DNA of 64,000 nt from a virus, in IMG/VR virus record IMGVR_UViG_3300005537_000002, positions 32,001 through 96,000 of that record; one strand, written 5' to 3'. The notes under the pieces were generated by a model that did not search any database, was not told where the DNA came from, and was given only the letters and a program-made list of their open reading frames with translations. The translations under genes and the position numbers were made by a program. Shown one piece after another: positions 3,925-57,203 of this stretch (the stretch's first letter is position 1; each line of letters opens with the position of its first letter).

Positions 3925-4638
3925 ATGCCAAACTCCCCTATTACAAAGCAGTCCGTAAGACTGCTTGTCATTTCGTATATCAGTTCCGTTAGTATCGTCG
4001 CATTCCTACTGGTTAGCGCACAAGTCCTTATCCAACTCGTACTACTACAAGAGGTGCACACTCGTTCGATAGCCTCTACCATTAATGGTCAGGAACTTCG
4101 CACACAGCGTATGTTCTATAACATCATCCTGCTACAGTCTCCAGGTGGTGTTGCTAGTTACGCAGCCCTTACGAAAACTGTCGCAGCCGACGCCACGCTG
4201 TGGGAGCAGACTCAAAGTGCGATGTACTCCGACAGTTCGAACTACCCGGCAACTGCAATCGCAGCACTACAAAAAGGTAAGACGGACTACATTGCTATGC
4301 ACGACGCACTTACTCGCATCTTTGCCATCGAGAAAACCAATCCGCCGAACTCATTCGACCTTGTCCGACCGGATGTAGGCGTATTCTACATTCACGAGTC
4401 TCCTTACCTACAATCGCTCATCTCTACCTACACTGACCTCGCAAAGTCAGCTGACGACTACGTACAATCCGTACGAGTGCTCGAAATAGTACTCTTTGTG
4501 CTCATGATACTCACACTAGTACTAGAAGCTCGACTCGTGGCAGCTCCGGCCATTCGTCACCTTAACGATCACTTACGTACTCTAGCGCATACGTTGGAAC
4601 TAGTCGACAAAATTACCGGAGAGGAGCCCAAGACATGA
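3925..4638 (+). CDS. two-TM membrane protein with NarX/PilJ-like extracytoplasmic sensor domain and no output domain
   Basis: TM1, then INGQELRTQRM resembling the INxAGRQRMLSQR P-box, then a helical domain, TM2 and a short tail. Confidence 0.5.
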   Translation: MPNSPITKQSVRLLVISYISSVSIVAFLLVSAQVLIQLVLLQEVHTRSIASTINGQELRTQRMFYNIILLQSPGGVASYAALTKTVAADATLWEQTQSAMYSDSSNYPATAIAALQKGKTDYIAMHDALTRIFAIEKTNPPNSFDLVRPDVGVFYIHESPYLQSLISTYTDLAKSADDYVQSVRVLEIVLFVLMILTLVLEARLVAAPAIRHLNDHLRTLAHTLELVDKITGEEPKT

Positions 4639-51875: not shown

Positions 51876-52451
51876 ATGCTAGAATCGATAGAGACAACAC
51901 ACAACGGTTTCAGATTTCGTTCCCGAAAGGAGGCCCGTTGGGCTGTGTTTTTCGACACAGCCCAAATACCTTTCCTCTATGAACCGGAGGGCTTCAAGCT
52001 ATCATTCGATGCTTCGCAGAAAGACTACAGTTTCACTGACTCTGACGACATAGAGGAAACTCTATGGTACTTACCCGACTTTTGGCTGCCGCAACAAGAC
52101 TGCTATTGGGAAGTAAAGGGGGTAGAACCCGCAAGAATGGAAAACATTCGTGCGAAGAGACTAGCTTACGGGTCAGGTAAAGATGTATTCATCAGCTTCG
52201 GTGACATATGGCTCCCAGAAGAAGGTACAAATACAGACTATTGTAGCGCTCACGTCTTCTTCGGTAGTGGAGGTTGGGACCTAGCATACTGGTGGTGCCA
52301 ATGCGACTATTGTGGCAAACTCCAACTACAGTTTGAGGGTCGAGTAGAGCGCTGCTCTTGTAAACAGACTGAACGTAGGCTTAAAGGAGGAGGTACAAAC
52401 TCCGATCGATTAGTAAGGGCCTATAAAGCAGCTCGTAGTGCTAGATTTTGA
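51876..52451 (+). CDS. PD-(D/E)xK-like nuclease, conserved phage protein
   Basis: FRSRKEARWAVFFD...YEPEGF...YLPDFWLP...EVKG. Confidence 0.75.
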   Translation: MLESIETTHNGFRFRSRKEARWAVFFDTAQIPFLYEPEGFKLSFDASQKDYSFTDSDDIEETLWYLPDFWLPQQDCYWEVKGVEPARMENIRAKRLAYGSGKDVFISFGDIWLPEEGTNTDYCSAHVFFGSGGWDLAYWWCQCDYCGKLQLQFEGRVERCSCKQTERRLKGGGTNSDRLVRAYKAARSARF

Positions 52452-52462
52452 GGAGTTGGTTC

Positions 52463-53476
52463 GTGATTGCTACAAACACGTTAGTGTGGACGGATGCTAG
52501 CGTGAAAACGTTAGCGCAGTTGAGCGTTGGAGACAAGGTCGTTTCCAACGCTCAACTTAAGCAGGTTCGAACGGTCGAACGGACTGAAGTAGATAGGACG
52601 CTTACTATACGTGCAGCAGGTGTGCAGGATGTGTGTATGTCACTCGACCAGCAAGTGTATAGTCGTAAGCCTAAAGATGTCGAATGTACGTGGCGTATAG
52701 CGGCTGAGCTAGATACGGAAGATTTTATTTGGGTTCCTCGTCTGACAGCCACGTCTTGGAACACTGACTATCGAAGTGTTGCACTAACTCGAGAGCTTGC
52801 CAACGTTATTGGCTGGTACTTAGCTGTAGGAAATGCTATACCTAGCACAGGTATGGTGTACTGGAACTTTACTCGAGCAGAGGAGGAATACGCCGCACAA
52901 CTCATGTCAGACCTGCTAGTCGTGCGTGCATTCTTCGTTACGGAATCATCGCACAATAGAATCGGTATGCCTCGTATGCAGCACACGGGCATCAATGGCA
53001 TACTGGTTAAGTTCGGGAGTAAGCGTATGTCTGACTGGCTGAAACTGAACTTCGGCAACGCTTCGGCTAACAAACACATTCCTCCGTGGGTGTATAGAAC
53101 GTCTCCTAAGTTTATTGACCAACTGCTAGCCTCGTATTCGCATGCCGACGGTATTGCGGGTCGTGAGTGGCTAGTTAGCACAGTGTCAATTGACCTAGCT
53201 TACGGCTTGCAACGCTTGCTCAATAAACTTGGGAAGTGCATACGGGTCATCACTAAAGATAACACGTACGGGTACCCCACACTCCATCAATGGGAGTACG
53301 TACTGTACTACGGGTGGCATAGAAGGCAGTCTCAGAAATTCGTCGGCGCTTATAAAGACCACTTCGAGTGTGCTATAGAACGGATTACGCCCTCGAATAA
53401 ACGTATGGAGGTAGGGACTATCCACACTGTAGGCTCGCTACCCTACGCAGTTCCGTACTTAGTGATGCCTACTTGA
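52463..53476 (+). CDS. free-standing degenerate intein (Hint plus LAGLIDADG) with no exteins
   Basis: Block A-like IATNTLVWT..VKTLAQLSVGDKV; LAGLIDADG-like VIGWYLAVGN and LLASYSHADG; STVSIDLAYGLQRLL; no Cys1, TxxH or His-Asn. Confidence 0.75.
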   Translation: MIATNTLVWTDASVKTLAQLSVGDKVVSNAQLKQVRTVERTEVDRTLTIRAAGVQDVCMSLDQQVYSRKPKDVECTWRIAAELDTEDFIWVPRLTATSWNTDYRSVALTRELANVIGWYLAVGNAIPSTGMVYWNFTRAEEEYAAQLMSDLLVVRAFFVTESSHNRIGMPRMQHTGINGILVKFGSKRMSDWLKLNFGNASANKHIPPWVYRTSPKFIDQLLASYSHADGIAGREWLVSTVSIDLAYGLQRLLNKLGKCIRVITKDNTYGYPTLHQWEYVLYYGWHRRQSQKFVGAYKDHFECAIERITPSNKRMEVGTIHTVGSLPYAVPYLVMPT

Positions 53477-54544: not shown

Positions 54545-55108
54545 ATGTCAGCAGATACACCTATTGTAGATCAGCCTACGTCAGAGTTACCAGTAGTGCG
54601 ACCAACTCATACTTGGAGGGTAGTAGCAGATCCGAAGGGGGATCGGAAGCTACTGTCAGTTGGAACGAGCGTACTTGAAGCTATTCAAAGCTTCGCTCGT
54701 GGAGTACAGGATAACCAGCCGATTGGCATCTATTTAGATGATGTACCCGTCGCCGGAGTACACATCCAAGCAAACCAACCGCCGCTATGCTTACATATCC
54801 TAACGGATATGTCAGCGGCAGATATTGATTGGCACAGCGGACCTACTTCTGTTTGCACGATCGACGAGACGACGGTTATCGACTTGTTGAAAGTCGCATG
54901 TAACGGAGGTAGGATAACGTCCAAACTTCGATTGCCCCTCCCAGTTGTCAGTCGCACCTCAGATGTAAGTTCACTCACACTCGTGAAACTACTACTCTCC
55001 GCACTGTCCAACGAGACACAACCCCATGTGCTAACTGAGCAATGCCAAGCAATCGTCGTACAAGTTGACAAGACGTCGTGTAAATATCTACACGTCAAAC
55101 GTAGTTAA
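54545..55108 (+). CDS. hypothetical protein
   Basis: 187-aa ORF with GGAG RBS. Confidence 0.55.
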   Translation: MSADTPIVDQPTSELPVVRPTHTWRVVADPKGDRKLLSVGTSVLEAIQSFARGVQDNQPIGIYLDDVPVAGVHIQANQPPLCLHILTDMSAADIDWHSGPTSVCTIDETTVIDLLKVACNGGRITSKLRLPLPVVSRTSDVSSLTLVKLLLSALSNETQPHVLTEQCQAIVVQVDKTSCKYLHVKRS

Positions 55109-55129: not shown

Positions 55130-55693
55130 ATGGCTGCAGTTATCATCGTCTCCATTACGGGGATGACCCCACTTATTATGAACCGCTTCCACGAGGAAGC
55201 ACAGGCAGAAGCTACCTCCCGCGTACACTCACGTAAGGAAACGCTCTCTCCGGAAGACGACGCCAAAGGTAGACTCTACCAAAACGAAGAACTCGGAGTC
55301 TACATGCCGGCCGAGTGGGTCCGTCAGTCTGTTATTGAAGCAGCTAAGAGACACAAAATTGGTAGACGGGCCGCTACTACAGACATTGCTGCCGCTGTGT
55401 ACATCGAACCGTTCGCTATGAAGCTCGAAGGTGAGTGGCACGTAGACACTCGTCCAGTCGTTATACCTGCCACTCAAGGACGTATTCTCAGACACAGGCC
55501 GATGTTCGAAACCTGGTCCGTGAAGGGTTTTCGATTGCAAGTCGAAACTGACCTCGTCGACGAAAAGCTAGTACGAGCTGTGCTAGACGACAGCGGTAGA
55601 TTCGTAGGGGTAGGAGACTTCAGACCCACTAAGAAAGGCCCCTACGGCAGATTCCGTGTAGACAGTTGGGAACGTTTAAGCAACCACTCATAA
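55130..55693 (+). CDS. stand-alone RAMP/Cas7-like RRM-fold protein (Vipr-like candidate effector)
   Basis: First strand VSITGMTPL, central YMPAEWVRQSV (cf. RAMP IPGSSLKG) and C-terminal glycine-rich loop GVGDFRPTKKGPYGRF; no cas genes nearby. Confidence 0.75.
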   Translation: MAAVIIVSITGMTPLIMNRFHEEAQAEATSRVHSRKETLSPEDDAKGRLYQNEELGVYMPAEWVRQSVIEAAKRHKIGRRAATTDIAAAVYIEPFAMKLEGEWHVDTRPVVIPATQGRILRHRPMFETWSVKGFRLQVETDLVDEKLVRAVLDDSGRFVGVGDFRPTKKGPYGRFRVDSWERLSNHS

Positions 55694-55694
55694 A

Positions 55695-56886
55695 GGTTTG
55701 GTTTGTCAAGTTAGGCTATGGTGGGTCACGGCAAGGTAAGGACGCTTCGGCTCGGATTGGTGAGCTATAGTAAGTCACGGTAGGGTGTTGTAGGGTAAGG
55801 ATGGCGTGGTTTGGACTAGTGCGACTTGGAGCCGTGGGGTAAGTCACGTTCCGGTATCGCGCGGTGTGGATGCCCAGGTACGGATCGGTTTGCTAGTGCG
55901 AGGTTGACACTGGTAGAGTTTGGTTTGTCTAGCTGGCGTCAGGTGAGGAAGCTATGGTGAGGTCGAGCATGGCAGAGTTTGCTCGGGTACTGCTAGGCGG
56001 GTTAAGGTACGGTCCGGAAGCTTTGGTCAGGTTAGGTATGCTCGAGTTTGTTACGGTGTGTTAAGGTTCTGTTTGGCTTGCTACGTTATGTATAGGTTGG
56101 CTATGCTGAGATATGGTAAGGACGCTTTGGTTTGGACTGGTCGGGACAGTTAAGGGGTGGTCCGGTATAGCTTGCTACGGATTGGTTTCGTTCGGCTCGG
56201 TTAGGAAGCTTCGGTACGGTGAGTTGAGGCTAGGATTGCAATGGTCGGGTATGTTTTTATAGGGTTCGGTTAGATCAGTAGTGGTAAGGCGCCGTAGGGA
56301 CAGGTCTGAGAGGCGAGGTTGCATGCGGCTAGGAGTGGTGTCGTATGGTACGGATGCTAAGGAGAGGTTAGGACTGCAATGGTCTGTCGCGGTAATGACA
56401 GGCGTGTCGATGTGTGGTATGTTCAGGTGAGGATGCTTCGGTATGGATCGGCGCTGTTTGGAAAGGTTTGCTAGGGTAAGTCGAGGCTCACAGAGGTATG
56501 GTAGGTCGTGGTACAGAACGGTTCGGAAGCCTAGGTATGGTACGTAATGGCATGCTTTGGTAGTCTTTTGTCTGGCACGCTAAGTCGAGGTGGAGTTCGG
56601 TAAGCTGCGGAGAGGAAGCTAAGGTCTGGAACGTCGAGGTATGGTATGGGAAGCCATTGTACGGTGAGTCGGTGTGAGCGAAGGTTTGTTAGGCTGGGGT
56701 ATGGAAGTCCAGGAAAGGTGAGGTGCAGTTTGGCAGTGCGTGGTGAGGTAGGGCTGTGTCCCGGTAACGTGAGGTAAGGTACTGCAACGCGCGGTGAGGT
56801 TCGGATGCTAAGAACAGGCGTGGTACGGTATAGTGGGGAAATGCTAGGTAAGGCATGTCAAGTTGCGCTTGCGTAAGGTACGGTTT
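55695..56886 (+). ncRNA. GGY-NN pentamer guide-like array (about 227 pentamers, 15 units)
   Basis: Strict 5-nt phasing with semi-conserved positions 1-3 and variable positions 4-5; 4-nt breaks at 55740, 55799, 55868, 55947, 56016, 56120, 56204, 56308, 56352, 56431, 56525, 56614, 56703, 56803; no credible ORF. Confidence 0.8.
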
Positions 56887-56891
56887 TACAG

Positions 56892-56936
56892 CGCGTGATA
56901 GTATGCGGAACCGTTGTCGAAGCATACTATCACGCG
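56892..56936 (+). terminator. 15-bp perfect hairpin closing the array
   Basis: CGCGTGATAGTATGC-N15-GCATACTATCACGCG. Confidence 0.65.
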
Positions 56937-57203
56937 TTCGTAGTGGTTTCGGTACGCTCTATCATAGTTTGGGGTTCCGATGAGATGTAGAGCCATCTCA
57001 ATTGTAGAGTCTGACGTGTATAGCACAGTGCCATCATTAGAGGCCTTTGCTAGGTAATAGCGTACTAGGCTACCCCTTCGGACTAGCACAGTTGCATTGT
57101 AGGTCGGTTCGTTTGTCCGAGCTCTCAACAGAGAAAACGGACGTTCATTGGCTTTCCCCTCTGACATGGATACCTGTTCTCCTTCGTAGTAAACACAGCC
57201 CTC

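What the first reader, a model, noticed from the sequence alone, without database searches (positions are those of the whole stretch)
55695..56886. The array is split into 15 guide-sized units by 4-nt register breaks (consensus GGAN followed by GCY)
Seen (hand parse): phase shifts occur at 55740 GGAC, 55799 GGAT, 55868 GGAT, 55947 GGAA, 56016 GGAA, 56120 GGAC, 56204 GGAA, 56308 GAGA, 56352 GGAT, 56431 GGAT, 56525 GGAA, 56614 GGAA, 56703 GGAA and 56803 GGAT. Most are followed by GCT or GCC. Unit lengths are 59, 69, 79, 69, 104, 84, 104, 44, 79, 94, 89, 89 and 100 nt: all 5n+4 except the last, which has one extra C near 56762. Units carry 8-20 pentamers, and no two units share an NN string, as expected for spacers. 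Example NN strings: unit at 55799 gt tt ct gc tt gc gg aa ac cc at gc gt; unit at 56352 aa ga ta ct at ct gc aa ca gt ga gt at ca ga; unit at 56614 aa ct ac ga at at aa at ac ga gg ga aa tt ag gg at. Inference: the breaks mark processing sites or filament boundaries that yield about 15 separate guides.
Basis: partly seen in the sequence, partly recalled or inferred. Interest (0 to 1): 0.88.

Follow-up and report, generated by a model that had tools for sequence, protein, structure and literature searches.

The report
Phage VIPR staggered guide-RNA array
The 1.2-kb five-base rhythm behind a small Cas7-like gene in this soil phage is the guide-RNA array of a VIPR system (a CRISPR-related DNA silencer first described in 2026), and the one-base register slips do cut it into about 15 guides, so it is a clean new example of a known kind, not a new system.

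Summary
Observation confirmed exactly. An unsupervised five-state phase parse finds GGT-NN pentamers from 55695 to 56886. It finds fourteen 4-nt tokens at the stated coordinates: 13 are GGA[A/T/C] and one is GAGA. One +1 slip lies near 56755-56762. Breaks are followed by GCY in 11 of 14 cases and are flanked by fully canonical pentamers. Units hold 8-20 pentamers, far more regular than random placement gives (P<1e-5).

The upstream gene (55130-55693) is a Vipr protein. It matches the solved SUSP1 Vipr at E=4.5e-9, keeps the RNA-contact residues, and models as a Cas7 fold. The locus is therefore a VIPR system, and the -1 breaks correspond to the "staggered vrRNA array" of the 2026 discovery preprint (fig. 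S18), which was not confirmed there by RNA sequencing.

Seven related Vipr loci (54-71% identity) show the same -1 breaks with lineage-specific delimiters; more distant relatives do not. In one relative, a single inter-break unit matches a rival vipr gene at 27 of 30 positions under the published 1-nt-skip rule, and the match stops at the break. In the window, unit 5 spells a Vipr N-terminus from the start codon (9 of 13, permutation p about 3e-4).

No exact natural target was found. No RNA data exist, so cleavage at the breaks is untested. The scan has met VIPR arrays, some filed as staggered, on other DNA before.

The parts
55130..55693 (+). vipr gene (187 aa), a minimal Cas7-like RAMP
   Evidence: phmmer hit to PDB 36pp_D 'SUSP1 Vipr protein', E=4.5e-9. 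The G-loop reads GVGDFRP against SUSP1 GVGDWRP, and the thumb Arg is kept; D163, R165 and R123 are invariant among 30 homologues and F164 nearly invariant. The AF2 model has pLDDT 87, and its top Foldseek hits are type VII Cas7 and Csm3. It also matches phrog_4652.
55695..56886 (+). vrRNA array: 227 pentamers (consensus GGT-NN) in 15 units, starting 1 nt after the vipr stop codon
   Evidence: It is the only such array in the 177.6-kb genome. There are no ORFs and no Rfam hit. The RNA is predicted to be less structured than its shuffles, z=+2.0.
55695..55739 (+). unit 1 (9 pentamers), then delimiter GGAC at 55740-55743
55744..55798 (+). unit 2 (11 pentamers), then delimiter GGAT at 55799-55802
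55803..55867 (+). unit 3 (13 pentamers), then delimiter GGAT at 55868-55871
   Evidence: It shares the NN string GG-AA-AC-CC with unit 5.
55872..55946 (+). unit 4 (15 pentamers), then delimiter GGAA at 55947-55950
55951..56015 (+). unit 5 (13 pentamers), candidate anti-vipr guide, then delimiter GGAA at 56016-56019
   Evidence: Read as codon positions 1-2, the NN string gives M[DE]R[IM][RS][FL]RT[Y]G[KN]TP. The best match among 120 Vipr homologues is residues 1-13 of P0083 (9 of 13). The top 12 hits all begin at residue 1. Permutation gave 1 of 3000.
56020..56119 (+). unit 6 (20 pentamers), then delimiter GGAC at 56120-56123
56124..56203 (+). unit 7 (16 pentamers), then delimiter GGAA at 56204-56207
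56208..56307 (+). unit 8 (20 pentamers), then atypical delimiter GAGA at 56308-56311
   Evidence: This is the only break that lacks both GGA and a following GCY.
56312..56351 (+). unit 9 (8 pentamers, the shortest), then delimiter GGAT at 56352-56355
56356..56430 (+). unit 10 (15 pentamers), then delimiter GGAT at 56431-56434
56435..56524 (+). unit 11 (18 pentamers), then delimiter GGAA at 56525-56528
56529..56613 (+). unit 12 (17 pentamers), then delimiter GGAA at 56614-56617
56618..56702 (+). unit 13 (17 pentamers), then delimiter GGAA at 56703-56706
56707..56802 (+). unit 14 (19 pentamers plus one extra base within 56755-56762), then delimiter GGAT at 56803-56806
   Evidence: The +1 slip splits the unit's register into 10 + 9 pentamers.
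56807..56886 (+). unit 15 (16 pentamers), ending in the array-end motif GGTTT-TAC
   Evidence: The same GGTTT(T)A(Y) ending closes the arrays of L003, L004, L029 and L030.
56886..56943 (.). strong hairpin directly after the array, a possible transcript end shared with the convergent ORF 56886-57167
   Evidence: Fold gives -32 kcal/mol, z=-4.06. The consensus terminator scan found no T-run terminator.

Best explanation
Identity. This is a VIPR (Viral Interference Programmable Repeat) locus of a 177.6-kb uncultivated soil phage. It consists of a vipr gene followed on the same strand by a 'staggered' vrRNA array, most likely in one transcript.

How it works. Vipr protomers coat the RNA, one per pentamer. 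They hold G-G-Y and present each NN dinucleotide. The NN string pairs with double-stranded DNA that reads NN-x-NN-x (the 1-nt-skip rule), usually codon positions 1-2 of a rival element's gene, and silences it.

Role of the breaks. Each 4-nt token (GGA-W here) brings the next G doublet one base too early. In this lineage it also puts a purine where the next protomer's pyrimidine pocket needs C or U. The filament therefore cannot continue in register. The run between two breaks (8-20 NN) acts as one guide, giving about 15 guides.

Shown: the anatomy; Vipr homology; conservation of the -1 breaks in the subclade; and unit-equals-guide in a relative.

Inferred: filament interruption by the break; physical cleavage at the breaks; and the targets of the window's own guides. 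At least one guide, unit 5, appears aimed at the 5' end of rival vipr genes.
For: Vipr identity.

Pentamer code and break positions.

Single array, abutting the vipr stop codon, with no promoter-like site at its start: (one 9-of-12 consensus match lies inside it, at the level shuffles give).

RNA less structured than its shuffles, as expected for a protein-coated strand.

The same -1 breaks in related loci: L003, L004, L006, L009, L029, L030 and L046. Window 14 four-nt tokens against 1 six-nt token; L006 17 against 1; L009 8 against 0.

Absent in distant Vipr loci (27-41% identity), which have separate tailed vrRNAs.

Unit-equals-guide control: L009 unit 1 against the L046 vipr gene matches 27 of 30 positions, in codon frame. 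Continuation into unit 2 scores 2-5 of 12. L009's own vipr copy scores only 21 of 30.

Window unit 5 against Vipr N-termini.

No self-targets in the phage genome.

Published framework: 10.64898/2026.04.26.720920 and 10.64898/2026.04.26.720927. These give one protomer per repeat, a Y pocket that excludes purines, the 1-nt-skip rule, vrRNAs that target other VIPR systems, and the staggered arrays of fig. S18.
Against: No natural DNA target was found for any window unit. The best evidence, for unit 5, is a 69% codon-level match to homologues, not a real target.

Only 46% of the window's pentamers are canonical GGY, against roughly 85-90% by eye in the arrays of L006 and L009. Part of the array could therefore be decaying.

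No vap accessory gene was recognised next to vipr.

In L029, L030 and L006, some stretches between breaks are 36-51 pentamers long, and homology blocks do not always end at breaks. The 4-nt token may not be the only boundary signal.

The relatives' delimiters keep a pyrimidine at position 3 (GGCT, GGTT). The 'purine blocks the pocket' idea therefore cannot be the general mechanism. Only the shortened spacing is universal.
Confidence: 0.78

Rival explanations
1. Same VIPR array, but the transcript is never cut. The breaks are only kinks between consecutive Vipr filaments on one long RNA (beads on a string), which acts as a multi-headed silencer.
For: No ribozyme, hairpin or tail lies between units. 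No nuclease or vap gene was found in the locus. The published staggered arrays were not confirmed by small-RNA sequencing.
Against: The fig. S18 legend speaks of 'individual processed vrRNAs'. All characterised vrRNAs are about 100-nt species. A 1.2-kb RNA bearing about 227 protomers would be unwieldy.
Confidence: 0.2
2. The breaks are accidental single-base deletions in one long degenerate repeat tract that is decaying. They have no boundary function.
For: The scaffold is only 46% canonical. One +1 slip and one atypical break exist. Relatives show in-phase deletions that fuse units.
Against: Fourteen of 15 slips are -1, and 13 share GGA[A/T/C]. The flanking pentamers are 93% canonical against 44% in the interior, and spacing is regular with P<1e-5. 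The same -1 punctuation occurs in seven other loci. The Vipr ORF is intact with conserved contact residues.
Confidence: 0.02
3. The tract acts at the DNA level, for example as a G-quadruplex-prone GG-N3 run, a replication or packaging signal, or a protein-binding array. It is not a guide RNA.
For: The strand is strongly G-rich (GC skew about +0.45). Runs of GG-N3-GG could in principle form two-tetrad quadruplexes (own knowledge).
Against: Arrays are always found next to a vipr gene and on its strand, in unrelated phage backbones. The NN positions are hypervariable while GGY is fixed. A relative's unit reads a rival gene in codon register.
Confidence: 0.01

Closest known systems
VIPR systems with staggered vrRNA arrays (bioRxiv 10.64898/2026.04.26.720920, fig. 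S18)
   Same: A Vipr RAMP gene sits next to GGY/NN pentamer tracts. Consecutive guides abut with a one-base register overlap, with no tail or ribozyme between them. The element is phage-borne.
   Different: The delimiter letters are lineage-specific: GGA-W followed by GCY, with a purine at the Y position. The scaffold is unusually degenerate. There are 15 guides in 1.2 kb, and no vap gene was recognised. The published class itself lacks RNA-level confirmation.
Type II VIPR of Escherichia phage SUSP1 and the P. fulva prophage (same preprints; PDB 36pp)
   Same: The Vipr protein is homologous (E=4.5e-9) and keeps its G-loop and thumb contacts. It uses the GGY/NN code. Guide lengths are similar (9-16 repeats there, 8-20 here). 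Both are aimed at rival mobile elements, including other VIPR systems.
   Different: Each SUSP1 vrRNA is a separate RNA of about 100 nt with a conserved 3' tail of about 40 nt that forms a pseudoknot and caps the filament. No such tail exists between the units here.
Class 1 CRISPR-Cas backbone filaments (Cas7/Csm3 on crRNA)
   Same: The RAMP fold is shared (Foldseek probability 1.0, TM 0.55-0.63 to type VII Cas7 and Csm3). One protomer binds per fixed RNA step, and thumb insertions interrupt the pairing.
   Different: The step is 5 nt, not 6, and only 2 of every 5 guide bases pair. There are no repeat-spacer array, Cas6 or Cas5 handle, adaptation genes or large subunit.
TIGR-Tas tandem interspaced guide RNA arrays (named with an 18-nt period in 10.64898/2026.10.21.760802)
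   Same: Both are compact guide arrays with very short punctuation.
   Different: TIGR-Tas uses a different effector fold (Nop-domain Tas proteins, from own knowledge), an 18-nt period and contiguous split spacers. It is not related by sequence or code.

Membership tests
VIPR system | Vipr protein: a minimal single-RRM RAMP homologous to characterised Vipr | tested here: met
   phmmer hit to PDB 36pp_D 'SUSP1 Vipr protein', E=4.5e-9. The AF2 model (pLDDT 87) matches Cas7/Csm3 folds.
VIPR system | RNA-contact residues of the G-loop and thumb (SUSP1 D177, W178, R179, R138) | tested here: met
   They align to D163, F164 (aromatic kept), R165 and R123. D163, R165 and R123 are invariant and F164 nearly invariant in 30 homologues.
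VIPR system | An adjacent tract of tandem GGY/NN pentamers on the vipr strand, with a fixed trinucleotide and hypervariable NN | tested here: met
   The scaffold is degenerate: 46% exact GGY, and 94% within one change of GGY.
VIPR system | Guides read DNA targets by the 1-nt-skip rule (NNxNNx), typically codon positions 1-2 | tested here: inconclusive
   Window: no DNA-level target was found. Unit 5 gives a 9 of 13 codon-level match to a Vipr N-terminus, p about 3e-4. Relative L009 unit 1: 27 of 30 in frame on a rival vipr gene.
VIPR system | No self-targeting of the carrier genome | tested here: met
   Best matches in the 177.6-kb genome equal those of NN-shuffled controls for skips 0-3.
VIPR system | A vipr-accessory (vap) gene in the locus | tested here: not met
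   The neighbouring ORFs have no Pfam, PHROG, PDB or Atlas assignment and no homology to relatives' neighbours. Relatives carry a DinG/XPD-like helicase or a DUF559/MTES_1575 nuclease. The preprint says 'typically', so this feature is not strictly required.
VIPR system | vrRNAs are expressed and co-purify with Vipr | not testable with these tools
   Only one DNA run (soil metagenome) holds the sequence, and no RNA holder is listed.
Staggered vrRNA array (fig. S18 of the discovery preprint) | Successive guides abut with a 1-nt overlap (a -1 register shift), with no tail, ribozyme or spacer between them | tested here: met
   Fourteen 4-nt tokens, each immediately followed by the next pentamer run.
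Staggered vrRNA array (fig. S18 of the discovery preprint) | The pattern recurs in several independent members of the Vipr clade | tested here: met
   L003, L004, L006, L009, L029, L030 and L046.
Staggered vrRNA array (fig. S18 of the discovery preprint) | Processed RNA ends coincide with the boundaries | not testable with these tools
   No RNA data. This was also unconfirmed in the preprint.
Type II (SUSP1-like) vrRNA | Each repeat tract is followed by a conserved structured 3' tail of about 40 nt (pseudoknot) | tested here: not met
   No non-pentamer sequence lies between units. The array is less structured than its shuffles. The only hairpin is after the last unit.
CRISPR array | Direct repeats of about 23-50 nt alternating with spacers, with cas genes nearby | tested here: not met
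   Tandem Repeats Finder finds nothing. There is no Rfam hit. No Pfam domain, cas or other, was found in the ten ORFs around the array.

The most novel reading that the evidence does not exclude
In this subclade, a bare one-base register slip is the whole guide delimiter. The conserved core is 4 nt, or about 9 nt with its flanks. No structured repeat, tail, ribozyme or dedicated processing nuclease is involved. The filament ends because the next protomer cannot dock, and host RNases, or nothing at all, separate the guides. That would make this the most compact guide-array grammar known: 15 guides in 1.2 kb with almost no non-guide sequence. The alternation of strong and weak GGY scaffolds in this array could reflect a tolerance rule of the filament that has not been described.
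Probability: 0.3. Interest if true: 0.7.

Novelty: new member of a known kind. Interest (0 to 1): 0.45.

Why it matters
VIPR was described only in 2026, and its staggered arrays appear in just one supplementary figure without RNA-level confirmation. This locus and the related loci gathered here add three things.

- An explicit delimiter grammar, letter-specific to each lineage but always a -1 shift.
- A natural target showing that one inter-break unit is one guide.
- A hint that phages aim guides at each other's vipr genes.

The locus is a compact and easily cloned test case (vipr plus 1.2 kb). It could be used to ask how a RAMP filament knows where a guide ends, which also bears on how CRISPR repeat-spacer punctuation arose. 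It is not a new kind of system, and the scan has already met VIPR arrays, several of them staggered, in 40 or more other genomes.

Tried and rejected
**Target scans with exact gapped patterns.** Window units 3, 10, 8 and 14 gave 0 hits in viral contigs. A unit 12 seed gave 0 hits in metagenome contigs. A relaxed unit 5 pattern gave 11 hits in metagenome contigs. None of the 11 was a vipr N-terminus, and the unspecified guide positions matched at only 0-2 of 8, so they are taken as chance. The same pattern gave 0 hits in viral contigs. A guide seed conserved in L006, L029 and L030 gave 0 hits.

**Local searches.** Mismatch-tolerant searches of all window units against the own genome and against 286 kb of fetched loci found nothing above the shuffled controls.

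**Sibling phages.** None were found by DNA or by DNA polymerase. A single-protein search for vipr in viral contigs also found nothing. Whole records behind the metagenome loci could not be searched.

**RNA evidence.** No RNA holder is listed for this sequence.

**Orientation-coherence test.** I asked whether the NNs within a unit share a coding-strand bias. The result was not significant: p=0.16 for the window, 0.86 for L006 and 0.057 for L009.

**Homology-block ends between the L029, L030 and L006 arrays.** The ends looked somewhat more often near breaks than a rough expectation, but this is confounded by the conserved delimiter-adjacent pentamers, so it is not used as evidence.

**Overlap-model test.** I asked whether the two variable bases of the break token act as an extra guide dinucleotide. 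There is no support in the L009 control: TA does not match the preceding codon.

**Second sample.** The second contig carrying the same Vipr is identical to the window over the compared 8.6 kb, so it gives no polymorphism information.

**Neighbouring genes.** The upstream ORF 54545-55108 is not a Vipr paralogue and has no assignable fold.

**Other repeat and RNA-family tools.** Tandem Repeats Finder and Rfam found nothing.

Full report
**1. The observation**

The stretch 55695-56886 (+) has no ORF of 60 aa or more on the + strand. It is G/T-rich (G 39%, C 14%) and has a strong 5-nt rhythm: the G autocorrelation is 0.31-0.37 at lags 5, 10, 15 and 20.

I parsed it with a five-state cyclic Viterbi model whose emissions were learned from the data and which allows penalised -1 and +1 slips.
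- The pentamer consensus is G (81%), G (68%), T/C (85%, G 1%), N, N.
- One +1 slip falls within 56755-56762.
- The spacings and the three quoted NN strings are reproduced.

The breaks are not random slips.
- Thirteen of the 14 read GGA[A/T/C], and the fourth base is never G.
- Eleven are followed by GCY.
- The pentamers on both sides are canonical far more often than interior ones (93% against 44%).
- Unit sizes of 8-20 pentamers never arose in 100,000 random placements of 14 breaks.

'5n+4' follows by construction from single -1 slips. And units 3 and 5 do share one four-dinucleotide string.

**2. What it is**

The gene that ends 1 nt before the array (55130-55693) is a Vipr protein.
- It matches the solved 'SUSP1 Vipr protein' (PDB 36pp) at E=4.5e-9.
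- The G-loop GVGDFRP aligns to SUSP1 GVGDWRP, and the thumb arginine is conserved.
- D163, R165 and R123 are invariant, and F164 nearly so, among 30 homologues.
- An AlphaFold model (pLDDT 87) has type VII Cas7 and Csm3 as its top structural neighbours.

Vipr proteins and GGY/NN 'vrRNAs' were described in 2026 (10.64898/2026.04.26.720920 and 10.64898/2026.04.26.720927).
- One protomer binds each pentamer.
- The two guanines and the pyrimidine are buried in the protein.
- The NN dinucleotides pair with double-stranded DNA that reads NN-x-NN-x.
- Targets are mostly genes of competing phages and satellites, including other VIPR systems.

The same preprint names 'staggered arrays with overlapping vrRNAs'. 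The fig. S18 legend says that vrRNAs come from 1-nt overlapping positions, so that the end of one marks the start of the next. The preprint also notes that only the other two unusual architectures were confirmed by small-RNA sequencing. A -1 register break is exactly such a 1-nt overlap.

The window's genome is a complete 177,637-bp IMG/VR record with terminal repeats, from a soil metagenome. It has no close cultured relatives and carries only this one array.

**3. Comparative evidence**

More than 150 Vipr homologues at roughly 52-71% identity exist in metagenomes. I fetched loci for eleven of them.

| Locus | 4-nt delimiter token |
|---|---|
| L006, L029, L030 | GGCT or GGCA |
| L003, L004, L009, L046 | GGTT or GGTA |
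| Window | GGA-W, followed by GCY |

- All seven of these loci have long pentamer tracts on the vipr strand, punctuated by 4-nt tokens. Other token lengths are rare: window 14 against 1, L006 17 against 1, L009 8 against 0.
- L002, the closest homologue (71%), has a 37-pentamer tract with no break.
- More distant Vipr loci (27-41% identity, from diverse MAGs) mostly carry separate vrRNAs with tails or terminators; none shows a -1-punctuated array, and L018 has about 55 pentamers in one unbroken run. The staggered grammar is therefore a trait of this subclade.
- Arrays of close relatives (L029 and L030, whose Vipr proteins are 98.9% identical, plus L006) share homologous units. Some are reordered, and some are fused by in-phase deletions that removed a delimiter. 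Boundaries can therefore be lost, and stretches of 36-51 pentamers exist. This is a caveat for a strict rule of one break per guide.

**4. Is one unit one guide?**

An all-against-all gapped search among the fetched loci gave a natural positive control. It is the first unit of the L009 array: 15 NN between the tokens at 4629 and 4708.
- It matches vipr genes of other phages under the 1-nt-skip rule, in codon register.
- On L046 it matches 27 of 30 positions, at codons 58-72 (TFPAENIRQSIIGAS).
- The match begins at the first NN after the break. It does not continue into unit 2 (2-5 of 12 at any offset).
- L009's own vipr scores only 21 of 30, differing at several read positions; one difference is a synonymous serine codon, AGC for TCN.

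This shows, inside the same Vipr subclade, that the published code applies and that the segment between two 4-nt tokens behaves as one guide.

For the window itself, I translated each NN string as codon positions 1-2 and compared it with 120 Vipr homologues. This singled out unit 5.
- It reads M-[D/E]-R-[I/M]-[R/S]-[F/L]-R-T-Y-G-[K/N]-T-P.
- Its best matches all start at residue 1 of Vipr proteins (P0083 MDRISLLISGRTP, 9 of 13). Both the first and the last NN of the unit match.
- Only 1 of 3,000 NN shuffles reached this score, which is about 0.01 after correcting for 30 tests.

Unit 5 is therefore a plausible anti-vipr guide whose exact target is not in the databases I could reach.

**5. Mechanism (inference marked)**

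Shown:
- The array abuts the vipr stop codon.
- No promoter-like site lies at its start; the single 9-of-12 match inside it is at the level of shuffles.
- The RNA is predicted to be less structured than its shuffles (z=+2.0).
- A strong hairpin follows the last unit.

Inferred from the cryo-EM description: a 4-nt GG-to-GG spacing cannot seat two neighbouring protomers in register. In this lineage the adenine at position 3 should also be excluded from the pyrimidine pocket. Each token would therefore end one filament and start the next.

Whether the RNA is then cut, either by a host RNase at the exposed linker or by Vipr itself, cannot be decided here. An uncut 'beads-on-a-string' RNA is the main rival (about 0.2).

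Because relatives keep a pyrimidine in the token (GGCT, GGTT), only the shortened spacing is a universal feature.

**6. What speaks against, or remains open**

- No DNA-level target was found for any window unit, despite seven pattern scans with window units and local searches.
- No RNA data exist.
- No vap gene was recognised. Relatives carry a DinG/XPD-like helicase or a DUF559/MTES_1575 nuclease.
- The scaffold is only 46% exact GGY. It nevertheless looks constrained: 94% of pentamers are within one change of GGY, double deviations are under-represented, and canonical and non-canonical pentamers alternate more than chance. That argues against simple decay.
- The break at 56308 (GAGA) and the +1 slip in unit 14 are irregular.

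**7. Verdict**

The interpretation, that the breaks delimit about 15 guides, is supported by comparative evidence and by a natural target in a relative. RNA cleavage at the breaks is untested.

The thing is a new member of a known and very recently described kind: a VIPR staggered vrRNA array with its own delimiter dialect. Earlier follow-ups in this scan reached the same classification for VIPR arrays on other genomes.

Noticed in passing
window 55695-56886: Canonical (GGY) and non-canonical pentamers alternate more than chance: 137 alternations against 110 +/- 7 in within-unit shuffles, p about 1e-4. Double deviations from GGY are under-represented (12 seen, 21.7 expected). Relatives with the same Vipr G-loop have a far more canonical scaffold (roughly 85-90% by eye). 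Unexplained.
   Followed up: partly
window 55833-55852 (unit 3) and 55996-56015 (unit 5): The two units share the NN string GG-AA-AC-CC, which reads G-[K/N]-T-P. This is the conserved GxTP motif of Vipr N-termini. They may be two tiled guides against the same rival vipr region, but unit 3 alone is not significant.
   Followed up: partly
L009:4633-4707 against L046:3172-3216: This is a natural anti-VIPR guide. Unit 1 of the L009 array matches the vipr gene of another phage at 27 of 30 read positions, in codon frame. L009's own vipr scores 21 of 30; the differences include a synonymous serine codon (AGC for TCN).
   Followed up: yes
G000 + strand about 169,822-169,860 (outside the window): A guide conserved in L006, L029 and L030 matches this promoter/RBS-like stretch of the window's phage at 18 of 18 positions over its last 9 NN, but with a 2-nt skip (period 4). 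The chance expectation is about 0.01-0.03, and the match contradicts the 1-nt-skip rule, so it is probably chance.
   Followed up: partly
window 56877-56889; L003:5970-5980, L004:5970-5980, L029:6141-6150, L030:6278-6284: Arrays of this subclade end in a shared motif, GGTTT(T)A(Y), instead of a 4-nt token. It may be an array-end signal.
   Followed up: no
L029:4565-6145, L030:4555-6280, L006:6870-8393: Arrays of closely related phages share homologous guides. Some guides sit in a different order, and some are fused by in-phase deletions that removed a delimiter, giving 36-51-pentamer stretches.
   Followed up: partly
L006:3978-5966, L029:1464-3395; L003:5162-5761, L004:4808-5464, L009:5366-6043: The candidate accessory genes differ within the subclade. 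Some loci carry a DinG/XPD-like helicase (Helicase_C_2) and others a DUF559/REase_MTES_1575 nuclease. The window has neither next to vipr.
   Followed up: partly
window 56886-56943: A strong hairpin with a long, almost perfectly paired stem (-32 kcal/mol, z=-4.1) lies between the array end and the 3' end of the convergent ORF 56886-57167. It has no T-run, so it is not a textbook intrinsic terminator.
   Followed up: partly
window 52448-53476: This ORF hits a PHROG for the anaerobic ribonucleotide reductase large subunit over only part of the profile, positions 369-621 of 761. I did not examine it.
   Followed up: no
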